A stretch of 64,000 nt of DNA from Lingula anatina (Eukaryota > Animalia > Brachiopoda): NCBI GenBank assembly GCA_051362555.1, contig CM120645.1, forward strand, positions 11,594,001-11,658,000, given 5' to 3'. This document shows positions 13,636-50,256 of this stretch, piece by piece. The position numbers and the translations under genes are program-made. The notes beneath the pieces are model-generated. The model saw only the letters and a list, made by a program, of their open reading frames with translations. It was not told the origin of the DNA and searched no databases. Positions within the stretch are counted from its first letter, which is position 1. Each line of letters begins with the position of its first letter.

Positions 13636-15213
13636 TTATCCCAGGCCACCGTCACCGCCTCCTCCCCGACTCGGCGAGTGCCGGTAAAAATTGTTGAAAT
13701 TATTCACAACGATAGGCACAGGAAGAGCTATAGTGAGTACACCCGCTATCACACACAGCGTCCCCACGAGTTTCCCCCACACCCCACTGGGGACCAGGTC
13801 CCCGTACCCCACCGTTGTCATGGTGACAATAGCCCACCAGAACCCCTCGGGAATACTGTAGAATTTCGTGTCCTTGGATTCCGTTTCCACGAAAAACATC
13901 ACTGAAGCGAAAAGTACTACCGATATTCCCAGAAATATGGCGAACATGCCGAGTTCCTTCATGCTGGCTTTCAGAGTAAGGCCCAGAACTTGTAAGCCAC
14001 GGGAATGTTTAGAGAGTTTGAAAATCCTAGTCACTCGAAGAAGTCTCAGGATTCTGAGATAAGCCAAAGATGCGCTTTTGCTGTCATAGGAACAACTTTG
14101 TAGCCAGGAAACCACGGCAACGATAACGAAGTAGGGCAGTATTGCCAAGAGATCAAATATATTGATGATATTGAGGCAGAATTTCTTCTTATTCGGGCAA
14201 GAAATGAGGCGTATGATGAGCTCGAACGTGAACCATATAACACAGCACGATTCAATGATGAAAAATGGGTCTCGGTAATTCGGTTTATAGGCGTAGGTCT
14301 GCGTATTCCCATCCTTATCTACTACAGTCACATTAATGCATGAGTTATCCTTAAACTCGGGTAAAGTCTCCAAGCAAAACGTTACGATCGAAACGAGAAT
14401 CACAATAATGGAGAAAAGGCCGAGAACACGTGCATACATAGAGCTGCTAGGAAATTCCATTAATAACCAAATTTCTCTGAGAATTCGATGCCGAGGTAGC
14501 ACAACATCAGGTTCAGGCATGAAACCTTCTTTCTTTTTATAATCTAAAACAATCTCGTCCCCCAGCTCGTAAAATGTCATTTCGTCCATGAAAATATCCT
14601 GCGGCACCTCCATCGGCCTTTTTAGCCTACCCCCCGACTGATAAAAGTTCAAAATAGCCTCAAACGTTGGCCGGTGGCGATCTAGAAAATACTCCTGTCG
14701 AAAGGGGTCCCAGTACTTTCTGCGTTTGTTTGGGTCCCCAAGTAATGTATTGGGGAACCGTTCTAAAGTTCGTAATTGGGTCTCGAACCGTTGCCCACTG
14801 ACGTTGATGGTGATCCTCTGACATCTTTCAATGAGACAGTCGTGGGGGAAGCAAGAGTGATCGTCTAAGTCGGAGCTAGGGGTGTGCTTCAGGCTACCGC
14901 TGCAGTCCTTTGAGAGAGCCACGGCGGTGACCAAAAATTCAGGGGGAACAGACTTACTCCTTCTCCGGTATTCGGCCTCGGTGTCCGCTTCGACTGTTAC
15001 AGGCGTAGTGTGCTCAGATCGAGTCGGTTTTCGGATCTTTTGGTCCCCCCGGAACAATCCTTCCAGTCTGTCTCTCGGTATGGTAAAAGTCCCATTGCTG
15101 ACATGTTGCGTGAGCAGCTCCCTGTCGTGCTCCACCTCAAACGACGTCGGAGAGCGGCTACGGCTGAAGTTTTTGGAGCCAAGGCCGTTGGTCGTTAAAT
15201 TACTGAAATGCAT
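13636..15213 (-). CDS. KCNA: Voltage-gated potassium channel alpha subunit, Shaker/Kv1-like (gene A), intronless CDS, 525 aa
   Basis: Kv1-type T1 domain (RITINVSGQRFETQLRTLERFPNTLLGDP..YFLDRHRPTFEAILNFYQSGGRLKRP), S1-S3 with acidic counter-charges, S4 LRILRLLRVTRIFKLSKH, pore WWAIVTMTTVGYGD, S6 LTIALPVPIVV. In-frame TAA two codons upstream of the ATG. The symbol is family-level only. Confidence 0.97.
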   Translation of the reverse strand: MHFSNLTTNGLGSKNFSRSRSPTSFEVEHDRELLTQHVSNGTFTIPRDRLEGLFRGDQKIRKPTRSEHTTPVTVEADTEAEYRRRSKSVPPEFLVTAVALSKDCSGSLKHTPSSDLDDHSCFPHDCLIERCQRITINVSGQRFETQLRTLERFPNTLLGDPNKRRKYWDPFRQEYFLDRHRPTFEAILNFYQSGGRLKRPMEVPQDIFMDEMTFYELGDEIVLDYKKKEGFMPEPDVVLPRHRILREIWLLMEFPSSSMYARVLGLFSIIVILVSIVTFCLETLPEFKDNSCINVTVVDKDGNTQTYAYKPNYRDPFFIIESCCVIWFTFELIIRLISCPNKKKFCLNIINIFDLLAILPYFVIVAVVSWLQSCSYDSKSASLAYLRILRLLRVTRIFKLSKHSRGLQVLGLTLKASMKELGMFAIFLGISVVLFASVMFFVETESKDTKFYSIPEGFWWAIVTMTTVGYGDLVPSGVWGKLVGTLCVIAGVLTIALPVPIVVNNFNNFYRHSPSRGGGGDGGLG

Positions 15214-15924
15214 GATTTATATTTATCCCGTTAATTACATCCTCTTCTCGTAGATATGCACACTGGCTGCTCCTGCTTCTTAATCTAATAAAAGGTGTGA
15301 CATTCCGATAGAAAATGTTCTCCGGAGCGGCCTCCGCGGAGCCCTGCCTCATGCCGAGCGGGTAGTGCGTACTCCGAGCCTCAGCTAATAACCTGGCTGA
15401 GCTTAGAGAGTAGCGGGGCACAGGTGGCTCTCTGCTTTAATGCGCGGTATACGTGTCCGTGGGCCTATTCACCGACTGAATTCGCACCCGATTTAGAATA
15501 AGCAATGAAGCTCGAGTAAACCCACAGGATTCATTATGATACGAAAATGAAGAACGGCTTTGTTGTTTGGTTATTCTAAACAATAGTGCCCAAAACTCCT
15601 TGCTGATTGTTTGACGGCGCTGTGGAAATCCTTGAAACAACTACAATACTAATCCCACGCCTGGTCTCCCAAGGGAAACAGCAGTTCCTTGTGTTTGAAT
15701 TATGCATTGTTCGACAATGCTGATAGAAGGTGTTTTTGGTCCTATCCATTCAAACGAACGCTATTTTTGTTTGGTACACCGTATGTTTATAGCTCCAGTC
15801 CCGTTAAATGCGCCCGTTGTACGGCCCTCCCTATAAGTCGTCAAAACCGATCGCGTCTTGGGCAGGTGAAAGGCCCTGTGTTTGTTTGCCTACGTAATCC
15901 AATTGAATGTAACGCCATTGCTTT

Positions 15925-16042
15925 CTGATGCTTGAAAATAAATTCGATATAATTACGGTGGCGTGTTGAAATGTTTTGTATTTACATAATGCGCTCTAAC
16001 TTAACACATCAGCAAACAATTTTCCGGTTGTGTTGGACTCAC
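15925..16042 (-). other. Candidate 5'UTR intron of gene A
   Basis: Minus-strand donor TGG|GTGAGT at 16042 and acceptor TTTATTTTCAAGCATCAG| ending at 15925 (alternative AG at 15931), about 0.7 kb upstream of the ATG. Motif-only. Confidence 0.4.
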
Positions 16043-48048: not shown

Positions 48049-48951
48049 ACTTAACACAAGGAACAAAGAAGCTGCATAAACACGGATGTAATACTTTTCA
48101 TAAACTACCAGCCTTGTAACTGAGACGTTCGAAGATTAAATGGTACATCTAAACGCATCATCACAGGCTGTCACAGGAAACGCTGATAAATTGTGAAAAC
48201 AAGTCATTCATATCTTTCATCTAAGACATCGCCAGAAGGATGTAGAAAATTGATCACGGAGCACCACTGAACCAACAACGCATTTAGCGCTATTTGTATG
48301 AGGGCCGTTTCAGCACATTTGTAATGGGGATAGGAACGACAGAACGATTGGAAAAGCCTTAAGGTAGTAATGCTGTCTTCAGGCTAAAATTAGAACGTGG
48401 AAAAGCAAAACATTCTCCCACGGGATAAGGACCGAAGTGGATTTTCGGGTTCAAACGTCATTGTCGTTGGAATATATTAAATCTAAAATGAAATACCACG
48501 AATTGGATAATAGAATACCTCATTGGCATTATTGACCGGAACCAAAGGATACATACAGAGTGAAACATATCCAATACCACCTCATTTGCTCAAATAAGCA
48601 GGTCTTACGATTCTAGATAGTAATTGAATCAGCGAACACATGTTGGTCTTATCTTCCACAGTTGCTGCAATTTTCAACTGGTTCTTTGAGTCGATATCGA
48701 CCTCTAACTGCAGGAGCAGCAATGCATATTCTGGAGTACTGAGGCAAGATCACTTCTCGTAGCGATCAATAGGCAGTAGTCCACTGAGCTCTGTTTCACT
48801 GCTGCTCAAGCTCTTTCTGTCGTAGGATCTTCCTTCGTTCGTTCTTCAACTTTGAAATTTACCGAAGTTTTCAGAGTTAACGAGTGGTGACAATGTTGAA
48901 ATTCACTGAATTGAGAGGCCATTTGTAGAAAGGGAATTATGAGCCACCGAT

Positions 48952-50256
48952 ATGGCAAATTGGTCAGCAGTTGTTGGTTCAACACGACGGGCCTCCTCCA
49001 AAAGAGAAACAAACAGGATTAAAAGTTTTGCAAACGAATCTACGGAGCTCATCCCACTTCACTGCTCGGATTCTTGCACCAGTCATGTCGTTCCGGGCAG
49101 TTCGAATCAGAGCACCTCTGACCACGACTGTCGTCTGGCCGGGTGCGAGAGAGTGGTCATCAACGTTAGTGGACAGTACTTTGAGACAAGAATGGCTGTC
49201 CTTAACAGACACCCAGATACCCTGCTCGGCAACCCGCAGAAACGGAGAAAATATTACGACAACACGCGGGGAGAGTACTTCTTTGATAGACATCGGCCGA
49301 CATTTGAGGCCATTTTCAATTACTACCAATATGGCGGGAAATTACGACGGCCGCCTACAGTACCTGATGACATTTTTCTGGACGAAATTGAATTTTATCA
49401 GATTGAAAAAGAGATTCTCGATGAATACAAAAGCGAGGAGGGTTATATCGAAGAAGAAATCATACTCCCAGATCACCCTTGTTTGAAAAAAGTGTGGTTG
49501 GTTTTCGAATATCCGGAGACCTCTCGCTTAGCATTCTTCGTTGCTATACTATCAGTATTAGCCACCTTCGTTTCTATTGTAGTTTTCTGCGTAGAAACAA
49601 TCCCTGGCTTTGAGTCCACCCTGTGTGTGCCAGGATATTTGCCAGATTTCAGTGATACAATTTTCATTATAGAATCATTATGCAATTCATGGTTTACAGT
49701 CGAGGTCGTCGCTCGTTTCATCGCATGTCCGAACAAGCTTTCATTTTTTAAGGATTTTAAAAACTGGGTCGACATAGCCGCTGTCGTTCCCTATTACGTG
49801 GGACTTTTCAATATTCTAGCCACGATGAACTGCGACAATGGAAAGGCGGGTGCTTCTCTAGCTTTTCTCAGAGTCATTCGACTGGTGCGAATCTTCAAGT
49901 TGACTAAACATTCATCAGGATTGCAAGTTTTATTGTTGACATTCCAAGCCAGCATGGGAGGGCTGGGTCTGTTTCTTGTTGCCCTCTCTGTCTGTATAGT
50001 CTTATTCTCCAGCACAATTTACTACTTAGAACTTGGCCAGCCCGGCTCTCAGATAGAGAGCATACCGGACGGTTTCTGGTGGGCCGTTATCACCATGTGT
50101 ACGGTGGGGTACGGTGACGTCACACCCCACGGATACTGGGGTAAAATCGTGGGGTCACTCTGCGCTCTAGCAGGCGTCCTCACACTAGCGATTCCAATTC
50201 CAATAATCACGGAGAACTTCAATAAATTTTACACCCACAAGACAAGGTCGAAATGA
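48952..50256 (+). CDS. KCNA: Voltage-gated potassium channel alpha subunit, divergent Shaker/Kv1-like with shortened S4 (gene B), intronless CDS, 434 aa
   Basis: Kv1-type T1 (CERVVINVSGQYFET..PDTLLGNP..YFFDRHRPTFEAIFNYYQYGGKLRRP), VFEYPETS before S1, S4 LRVIRLVRIFKLTKH, pore WWAVITMCTVGYGD, S6 LTLAIPIPII. In-frame TGA at 48940; ATG in good context (G at -3, G at +4). The symbol is family-level only. Confidence 0.97.
   Translation: MANWSAVVGSTRRASSKRETNRIKSFANESTELIPLHCSDSCTSHVVPGSSNQSTSDHDCRLAGCERVVINVSGQYFETRMAVLNRHPDTLLGNPQKRRKYYDNTRGEYFFDRHRPTFEAIFNYYQYGGKLRRPPTVPDDIFLDEIEFYQIEKEILDEYKSEEGYIEEEIILPDHPCLKKVWLVFEYPETSRLAFFVAILSVLATFVSIVVFCVETIPGFESTLCVPGYLPDFSDTIFIIESLCNSWFTVEVVARFIACPNKLSFFKDFKNWVDIAAVVPYYVGLFNILATMNCDNGKAGASLAFLRVIRLVRIFKLTKHSSGLQVLLLTFQASMGGLGLFLVALSVCIVLFSSTIYYLELGQPGSQIESIPDGFWWAVITMCTVGYGDVTPHGYWGKIVGSLCALAGVLTLAIPIPIITENFNKFYTHKTRSK

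What the first reader, a model, noticed from the sequence alone, without database searches (positions are those of the whole stretch)
13636..50256. Head-to-head pair of intronless, tail-less Kv1 paralogs: candidate co-regulated principal plus modulatory channel system
Seen: the only two genes in 64 kb are diverged Kv1-type subunits transcribed away from a shared 33.7-kb non-coding spacer, each with a single-exon CDS. Gene A is near-canonical in S4, S4-S5 and S6, while gene B is altered in all three. Known: Drosophila Shaker is multi-exon, whereas vertebrate KCNA clusters and many cnidarian Shaker genes are intronless. T1 domains restrict assembly to within a subfamily, and silent/regulatory subunits with altered S6 gates arose in the vertebrate Kv2 family and in cnidarian Shaker. 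Inference: this may be an independent lophotrochozoan Kv1 expansion in which B needs or tunes A in a heterotetramer, with shared enhancers driving co-expression.
Basis: partly seen in the sequence, partly recalled or inferred. Interest (0 to 1): 0.8.

Follow-up and report, generated by a model that had tools for sequence, protein, structure and literature searches.

The report
Ancient linked spiralian Kv1 channel pair
Two tail-less Shaker-type potassium channel genes of the lamp shell Lingula belong to two old gene lineages also found in molluscs and annelids, often still side by side, and one carries a fixed gate change that likely makes it a modulating subunit rather than a stand-alone channel, though its partner and shared control are untested.

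Summary
Both ORFs are real (A 13636-15213 minus, 525 aa; B 48952-50256 plus, 434 aa), and the window is Lingula anatina. They are not a local novelty. A and B represent two ancient spiralian Kv1 paralogue lineages that form one group (95/95), and members of both are already in a 2012 Shaker data set that calls their function unexamined.

Not found in my ten paper searches:
(1) A- and B-type genes share a scaffold in 10 of 19 other species, with consecutive IDs in an annelid and two bivalves.
(2) Both lineages fix an extracellular cysteine pair in the voltage sensor, a predicted disulfide.
(3) B fixes Thr at the gate seal (118 of 120). All 27 homotetramer-competent channels in a published set have Val there, and Shaker V478T conducts weakly. 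B has also lost T1 residues that A and canonical Shaker keep.

A modulatory role for B is therefore plausible. A dedicated, co-regulated A+B pair is weaker: one RNA run shows B at about 30 times A, and the linkage is broken in Patella. B's short S4 is shared with most A orthologues. The 'non-coding spacer' probably holds B's first exon and a 21-kb intron.

The parts
13636..15213 (-). Gene A CDS, 525 aa Kv1 subunit of the tail-less spiralian 'A' type; full S4, gate PVPIVV, canonical-like T1 motifs, no PDZ tail
   Evidence: differs by 2 residues from RefSeq XP_013408060.1 of Lingula anatina
48952..50256 (+). Gene B CDS, 434 aa Kv1 subunit of the pan-spiralian 'B' clade; S4 without R1, altered S4-S5, gate PIPIIT, relaxed T1 motifs, tail of 7 residues
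   Evidence: expressed in run X7
48049..48951 (+). 5' UTR part of B's coding exon, starting behind a splice acceptor that ends at 48048; holds 11 upstream ATGs
   Evidence: abrupt RNA start, sequence
26500..26597 (+). Candidate first (non-coding) exon of B; the 5' end is approximate, the 3' end is a perfect donor; lies in a CpG-rich stretch
   Evidence: X7-only island of 8 partly aligned reads, donor; inferred, joint not observed
26598..48048 (+). Inferred 21,451-nt 5' UTR intron of B, which would make up most of the 'spacer'
   Evidence: inference
50257..52000 (+). 3' UTR of B (reads continue at least to 52000, the end of the stretch laid)
49624..49833 (+). B Cys225 (S1-S2 loop) to Cys294 (S3-S4 linker): invariant extracellular cysteine pair, predicted disulfide
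   Evidence: 119 of 120 and 120 of 120 B-type; 0 of 44 canonical in these columns
14092..14340 (-). A Cys292 (S1-S2 loop) to Cys374 (S3-S4 linker): the same cysteine pair
   Evidence: 107 of 107 and 107 of 107 A-type
49855..49911 (+). B S4 segment, one triplet short (R307, R310, R313, K316, K319)
   Evidence: R1 absent in 120 of 120 B-type
50194..50211 (+). B S6 gate (residues 415-420) ending in Thr420 at the Shaker V478 seal position
   Evidence: Thr in 118 of 120 B-type; Val in 107 of 107 A-type and 44 of 44 canonical

Best explanation
A and B are tail-less Kv1 subunits from two ancient spiralian paralogue lineages, and B likely works as a modulatory subunit that conducts poorly alone and would tune heterotetramers with A and/or canonical Shaker. 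Shown: one A+B group apart from canonical Shaker; the shared loss of the long PDZ tail; a shared invariant cysteine pair in the S1-S2 and S3-S4 loops; a short S4 in all B-type and nearly all A-type proteins; and B-specific fixed changes in the S4-S5 linker and gate, with relaxed T1 motifs. Inferred: an early tandem duplication of a derived Kv1 produced A and B, and their adjacency is the surviving trace of it. The cysteines likely form a disulfide that ties the S3-S4 paddle to the S1-S2 loop. The missing R1 would lower the gating charge, giving shallow activation. Thr at the seal would make four-B channels hard to open, while one B in a tetramer would shift and flatten activation. Without the PDZ tail, such channels would escape the clustering that canonical Shaker gets.
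For: Tree: 27 A+B rows form one side of a branch, 95/95, with the loop and S4 trait columns dropped; B is 100/100 on a long stem of 0.66. Gate: Thr in 118 of 120 B-type cluster representatives. Val is found in 27 of 27 homotetramer-competent mouse and Nematostella subunits, and 42 of 43 regulatory subunits have atypical gates, polar insertions among them (PMC6279357 passages and Table S2). Shaker V478T homotetramers are 'weakly conducting', V50 +26.6 mV and z 0.9 against -29.4 mV and 3.9 for wild type (PMC2233904 Table I). T1: the E-T-Q..T and Q-S-G-G-R residues are fixed in A (106-107 of 107) and canonical (44 of 44), but several vary in B, e.g. the Gln is Arg 44, Trp 44 or Gly 12 of 120 and the Ser is Tyr in 86 of 120. 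That these are interface residues is recalled. S4-S5: G386 is replaced by a hydrophobic residue in B (Ile 65, Val 33, Leu 15 of 120), and E395 is Gly in 114 of 120. Tails: 25 residues or fewer in 100 of 106 A and 116 of 119 B, 0 of 44 canonical; canonical ends ETDV in 38 of 44. Linkage.
Against: No functional data were found for either lineage. B is well conserved across phyla (66-69% core identity, more than A's 54-60%), unlike the fast-drifting cnidarian regulatory subunits. B keeps both gate prolines, and Thr at position 6 is rare even among regulatory subunits (2%). V478T still conducts, and compensating changes nearby could restore normal gating. PMC6279357 found no consistent T1 signature of regulatory subunits, so the T1 drift could equally mean a separate assembly class. 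A leech Kv1 (LKv1) with a long branch has a measured V50 of +8.3 mV (PMC1208917); I could not place it, and if it is B-type this reading fails. The disulfide is inferred from conservation alone: the AlphaFold model (pLDDT 85) returned no coordinates to measure.
Confidence: 0.45

Rival explanations
1. B forms its own homotetrameric, shallow, high-threshold delayed rectifier, possibly a separate assembly class inside Kv1 with a re-tuned T1 and gate. A is an ordinary homomeric channel, and the two are neighbours only through common descent.
For: B is strongly and uniformly conserved after a long stem. Both gate prolines and the selectivity filter are intact. A short S4 occurs in the functionally expressed jShak1. 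B is expressed in X7 with almost no A. B is multiplied in leech, with five B-type models against one A-type among the motif hits in Table S1. LKv1 is a long-branch leech Kv1 with a measured V50.
Against: Thr at the seal is absent from 27 of 27 homotetramer-competent subunits and cripples Shaker. The T1 motifs vary within B rather than being fixed in a new state, which fits relaxed constraint better than a new self-specific interface.
Confidence: 0.35
2. One reading: A is the dedicated principal subunit and B its obligate modulator, co-expressed from shared regulatory DNA between them, perhaps a bidirectional promoter near 26-27 kb.
For: Same scaffold in 10 of 19 other species, with consecutive IDs in Owenia, Mizuhopecten and Sinanodonta. 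Shared cysteine pair and tail loss. B's probable first exon lies only about 11 kb from A. The single perfect minus-strand donor of the whole spacer (about 26970) lies within 400 bp of B's donor, noticed after the fact and without RNA support.
Against: In X7 the B CDS has about 7x depth and the A CDS about 0.2x; in X4 A has a trace and the B CDS none (bulk samples, 6-25% of each run read). The genes lie on different chromosome-scale scaffolds in both Patella species, and on different scaffolds in 7 further species. B-type proteins are named from flatworms, while no flatworm name appears among the listed A-type hits (only the top 120 were shown). Canonical Shaker has the same T1 motifs as A.
Confidence: 0.15

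Closest known systems
Lophotrochozoan Shaker (Kv1) expansion of Jegla et al. 2012 (PMC3519636; sections and Table S1 rows read)
   Same: Table S1 holds the same lineages: C.tel_114941, L.gig_190533 and H.rob_79879 are A-type; C.tel_229136, L.gig_137224 and five Helobdella models are B-type. The Fig. 7 legend marks a lophotrochozoan expansion.
   Different: [quoted passage not shown] In the passages I read it does not mention linkage, the cysteine pair, the short S4 or the Thr gate. The figure itself was not visible to me.
Silent/regulatory Shaker-family subunits: vertebrate Kv5/6/8/9 and Nematostella NvShakR (PMC6279357, PMC3519636)
   Same: An atypical residue in the six-residue S6 gate, and an intact T1-S6 core alongside a conventional paralogue.
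   Different: The defining trait, failure to form homotetramers, is untested. B keeps P1 and P3 and changes only V6 to Thr. B is conserved across phyla. The regulatory groups listed in PMC6279357 are chordate Kv2-type and cnidarian Kv1/3/4; no bilaterian Kv1 group is among them.
Canonical Shaker/Kv1 (Drosophila Shaker, Kv1.2, spiralian clade C)
   Same: T1 domain, six helices, TVGYG filter; best structural relatives. A keeps the T1 motifs, E395 and V478.
   Different: No long PDZ tail, an added cysteine pair, R1 missing in B and most A, and a separate branch. Where checked, canonical Shaker is on another chromosome (Argopecten, Haliotis rufescens).
Polyorchis jShak1
   Same: S4 one triplet short (sequence seen in Table S1); a functionally expressed channel.
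   Different: Cnidarian, with a canonical Val at gate position 6. It was not included in my tree; the short S4 is probably convergent (inference).
Leech LKv1 (Weiss et al. 1999; seen only as cited in PMC1208917)
   Same: A divergent annelid Kv1 on a long branch, V50 +8.3 mV.
   Different: Its sequence was not obtained, so I do not know whether it is A-type, B-type or neither. That it was expressed alone and branched apart from canonical Shakers is recalled.

Membership tests
Shaker/Kv1 subfamily | T1 (BTB_2) + six-helix channel domain + K+ filter | tested here: met
Shaker/Kv1 subfamily | Closer to Kv1 than to Kv2-4 | tested here: met
   B 430 bits against 227 or less; A 497 against 279 or less. 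No Kv2-4 outgroup was deliberately placed in the tree.
Canonical Shaker ortholog group | Full R1-R4 S4, long tail with PDZ motif, same clade | tested here: not met
   (A keeps R1 but fails on tail and clade; B fails on all three)
Lophotrochozoan Kv1 expansion (Jegla 2012) | Groups with the Capitella/Lottia derived Kv1 proteins of Table S1 | tested here: met
   Capitella 114941 (P0145) groups with A and Lottia 137224 (P0050) with B
Silent/regulatory Kv subunits | Atypical substitution in the PVPVIV gate | tested here: met
   B: Thr at position 6 in 118 of 120 against Val in 27 of 27 controls. A: conservative changes only.
Silent/regulatory Kv subunits | No functional homotetramer | not testable with these tools
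   Needs voltage clamp; Shaker V478T is only an analogy
Silent/regulatory Kv subunits | T1 self-incompatibility, with co-assembly and modulation of a partner | tested here: inconclusive
   T1 motifs are relaxed in B only, but there is no sequence signature for this trait. No complex prediction was run.
Co-regulated head-to-head gene pair | Conserved adjacency | tested here: met
   10 of 19 other species on one scaffold, 3 with consecutive IDs; broken in Patella
Co-regulated head-to-head gene pair | Conserved divergent orientation | tested here: inconclusive
   0 of 80 metagenome loci (flank up to 10 kb) held both types; accession numbers give no strand
Co-regulated head-to-head gene pair | Co-expression | tested here: inconclusive
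   B about 30-fold above A in X7; both near zero in the other three runs. Bulk and shallow, and leaning against.

The most novel reading that the evidence does not exclude
Spiralians evolved, more than 500 million years ago, a Kv1 module of their own: tail-less subunits whose voltage sensor is stapled by a natural S1-S2/S3-S4 disulfide. In it, B is the first regulatory (silent) subunit of a bilaterian Kv1 and is kept next to its partner A on a shared bidirectional promoter near 26-27 kb of this window.
Probability: 0.15. Interest if true: 0.75.

Novelty: new variant of a known kind. Interest (0 to 1): 0.5.

Why it matters
Molluscan and annelid neurons (Aplysia, leech, Lymnaea) are classic electrophysiology models, yet two of their Kv1 lineages have no assigned current in the papers I could search. 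If B is regulatory, it is a further independent origin of that phenotype, this time in bilaterian Kv1, and a direct test of the published model in which the gate drifts after self-incompatibility arises. The invariant cysteine pair offers a natural constraint on paddle movement and a possible redox handle. All of this can be tested with three cRNAs in oocytes. The expansion itself and the intronless CDS are known, which caps the score.

Tried and rejected
No whole genome was held for the window, so there was no genome-wide search for repeats or for Lingula's canonical Shaker. No RNA holder was listed by the run index; same-label raw-read runs were laid instead (4 of 9 listed). An 807-aa oyster record looked like an A-B fusion that might give orientation, but it is a B-B duplication artefact. 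A 1004-aa record is a fusion of two other Kv1s without the cysteine pair. The metagenome scan gave no locus with both types (0 of 80). In 29 of 50 B-type loci the core lay in one stop-free frame; the rest were split, cut or missed by my pattern, so an intronless CDS may not be universal, and some contigs may be transcripts. LKv1 and Aplysia aKv5.1 could not be placed; aKv5.1 is recalled only and not claimed as an orthologue. The short S4 was rejected as evidence of silence (jShak1; most A orthologues). RNA peaks in the spacer at 20.6, 28.2-28.84, 34.3 and 38.6-38.83 kb were rejected as genes: partial reads with heterogeneous loose ends point to dispersed repeats. The two differences from RefSeq A were not pursued as editing, since A has too few reads. 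Complex prediction was not run, because T1-T1 pairs would pass by likeness to solved Kv1 tetramers. A-type monophyly is not resolved: molluscan A (100/97) and annelid+brachiopod A (94/85) are separate, and the latter joins B at 90/80; no AU test was run. A paper search on natural S1-S2/S3-S4 disulfides listed nothing on these channels (15 of 37 listings seen). Earlier scan findings: none by sequence or words, and four unrelated ones by place.
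Full report
Observation. The two ORFs are as described: A 13636-15213 (minus, 525 aa) and B 48952-50256 (plus, 434 aa), with 33,738 bp between the start codons. Both have T1 and a six-helix channel domain, and both match Shaker/Kv1 structures far better than Kv2-4. A differs by two residues from RefSeq XP_013408060.1 of Lingula anatina, whose 342,045-bp contig has the same length as B's, so the animal is a brachiopod. 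Of 62 other stop-free frames of 85 aa or more, none passed a Pfam cut-off. Rfam found only the K-channel editing model on A's S6 codons.

Transcript structure. Four of nine same-label RNA runs were laid on 12001-32000 and 32001-52000. In X7, B is covered at about 7x from about 48050 to 52000 with no joint listed. Coverage begins abruptly at 11 reads five bases behind an acceptor that ends at 48048, with nothing in the preceding bin. X7 alone also has an island of 8 reads at 26564, aligned over about 92 bases each on average (my arithmetic from the bin depth), 33 nt before one of three perfect plus-strand donors of the spacer. I infer a non-coding first exon ending at 26597 and a 21.45-kb intron. 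The joint could not appear, because the two ends were in different calls. So the CDS is single-exon but the gene is probably not intronless, and most of the 'spacer' would be B's intron. A had about 0.2x depth in X7, a trace in X4 and none in X1 or X5; B had a trace in X1 and none over its CDS in X4 or X5. These are bulk samples from other individuals, with 6-25% of each run read.

What they are. B's best 120 hits are 54-70% identical (apart from itself) and include named nemertean, annelid, mollusc, flatworm and bryozoan proteins. A's hits fall into canonical Shaker and a second tail-less type; an alignment search extended the latter. I built a careful tree of 55 rows: 13 A, 14 B, 7 canonical and 21 other representatives. 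The S1-S2 loop, the S3-S4 linker and the first half of S4 were dropped, and long or fused rows were left out. A+B fall on one side of a branch at 95/95, and B is at 100/100 on a long stem; A-type monophyly is unresolved, and no Kv2-4 root was used. Members of both types are in Table S1 of Jegla et al. 2012. Its Fig. 7 legend marks a lophotrochozoan expansion, and its conclusions call the function unexamined. The expansion is therefore known.

Shared traits, counted on 271 cluster representatives (107 A, 120 B, 44 canonical; fused or odd records and proteins under 340 aa removed; types assigned by S4 motif). A cysteine in the S1-S2 loop occurs in 107/107 A and 119/120 B, and one in the S3-S4 linker in 107/107 and 120/120; neither column has Cys in the 44 canonical proteins. 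R1 is absent in 120/120 B and 103/105 A; Lingula A and one close unnamed relative keep it. Tails of 25 residues or fewer occur in 100/106 A, 116/119 B and 0/44 canonical, and the canonical ones mostly end ETDV. These counts are not independent samples, since related species are over-represented. Two invariant extracellular cysteines suggest a disulfide across the top of the voltage sensor. The AlphaFold model is confident (pLDDT 85) but gave no coordinates, so this rests on conservation alone.

B-specific traits. Gate position 6 is Thr in 118/120 B, against Val in all A and canonical proteins. G386 becomes hydrophobic and E395 becomes Gly (114/120), with Glu moved one residue earlier in 94/120. 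T1 motifs that are fixed in both A and canonical proteins vary in B. In Pisupati et al. 2018, Val is at position 6 in all 27 homotetramer-competent subunits, and 42 of 43 regulatory subunits have atypical gates. In Kitaguchi et al. 2004, Shaker V478T is weakly conducting with V50 shifted by +56 mV. This is the real support for a modulatory B. Against it: B is more conserved between phyla than A (66-69% against 54-60%), both prolines are kept, the same paper found no T1 signature, jShak1 works with a short S4, and the functionally measured leech LKv1 could not be placed.

Linkage. A- and B-type genes share a scaffold in 10 of 19 other species where I had both. Owenia (CAH1783926/7), Mizuhopecten (OWF35707/6) and Sinanodonta (017029/030) have consecutive IDs. 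Potamilus is five locus tags apart, Haliotis rubra shares a 468-kb scaffold with IDs three apart, H. rufescens is seven apart, and Ylistrum shares a 1.04-Mb scaffold. Argopecten, Ostrea edulis and H. asinina share only a chromosome, which is weak. The genes are on different chromosome-scale scaffolds in Patella vulgata and P. caerulea, and on different smaller scaffolds in Aplysia, Bulinus, Nucella, Saccostrea, Capitella, Lottia and Helobdella (the last three from gene-model names). Orientation could not be read, and none of 80 metagenome loci held both types. Adjacency in a brachiopod, an annelid and molluscs makes it ancestral, but a tandem origin in slowly rearranging genomes explains it without co-regulation.

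Mechanism. Most likely (0.45), B is a modulatory subunit that conducts poorly alone and shifts or flattens activation in heterotetramers. A and canonical Shaker share T1 motifs, so either could be the partner, and the X7 ratio argues against A alone. The main rival (0.35) is a homomeric, shallow, high-threshold channel, perhaps of its own assembly class. All statements about currents, assembly and the disulfide are inference.

Literature seen. PMC3519636: passages, section 16 and Table S1 rows (the file was cut when stored; figures not visible). PMC6279357: abstract, passages and Table S2. PMC2233904: passages with Table I. PMC1208917: passages and one supplement. PMC6054404 and bioRxiv 2024.12.09.627618: passages (preprint supplements not seen). 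Ten searches (listings only, several truncated) showed no paper on the linkage, cysteine pair or gate of these clades. Subscription journals, where LKv1, aKv5.1 and the jShak1 studies appeared, are mostly missing from the library, so prior description cannot be excluded.

Verdict. This is a real and ancient gene pair from a known but uncharacterised expansion, carrying three features I did not find described, which make a regulatory-subunit test easy. New variant of a known kind; interest 0.5.

Noticed in passing
window 26960-26975 (minus strand): The only perfect AG|GTAAGT donor on the minus strand of the spacer lies about 375 bp from B's probable exon-1 donor, in a CpG-rich stretch with CCAAT-like boxes in both directions (26264, 26499). 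It is a candidate first exon of A and a candidate shared promoter; there is no RNA support.
   Followed up: partly
window 13699-13812 (minus): Rfam RF00485 (potassium channel RNA editing signal), 68 bits, on A's S6 codons. It probably reflects coding conservation; too few reads to test editing.
   Followed up: no
   Followed up: partly
window 48049-48951: B's 5' UTR has at least 900 nt and 11 upstream ATGs, which suggests translational restraint.
   Followed up: no
window 37337-38003: A few X7 reads (4 at about 37700) near a weaker donor at about 37750: a possible alternative 5' exon of B.
   Followed up: partly
window 28200-28840, 38590-38830, 34290-34430, about 20600: Abundantly transcribed dispersed repeats (partial reads, heterogeneous loose ends); the 38.6-38.8 kb one shows opposite-strand joints like a small inverted-repeat element.
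   Followed up: no
PMC3519636 Table S1, C.tel_73530; P0439, P0462: Further, more degenerate proteins with the same cysteine pair and altered gates, tail-less where the end is present: possibly a third lineage of candidate regulatory subunits.
   Followed up: no
B-type proteins, pore helix: The first Thr of TTVGYG is Cys in about 21% of B-type proteins, Lingula B included, and in no A-type or canonical protein.
   Followed up: no
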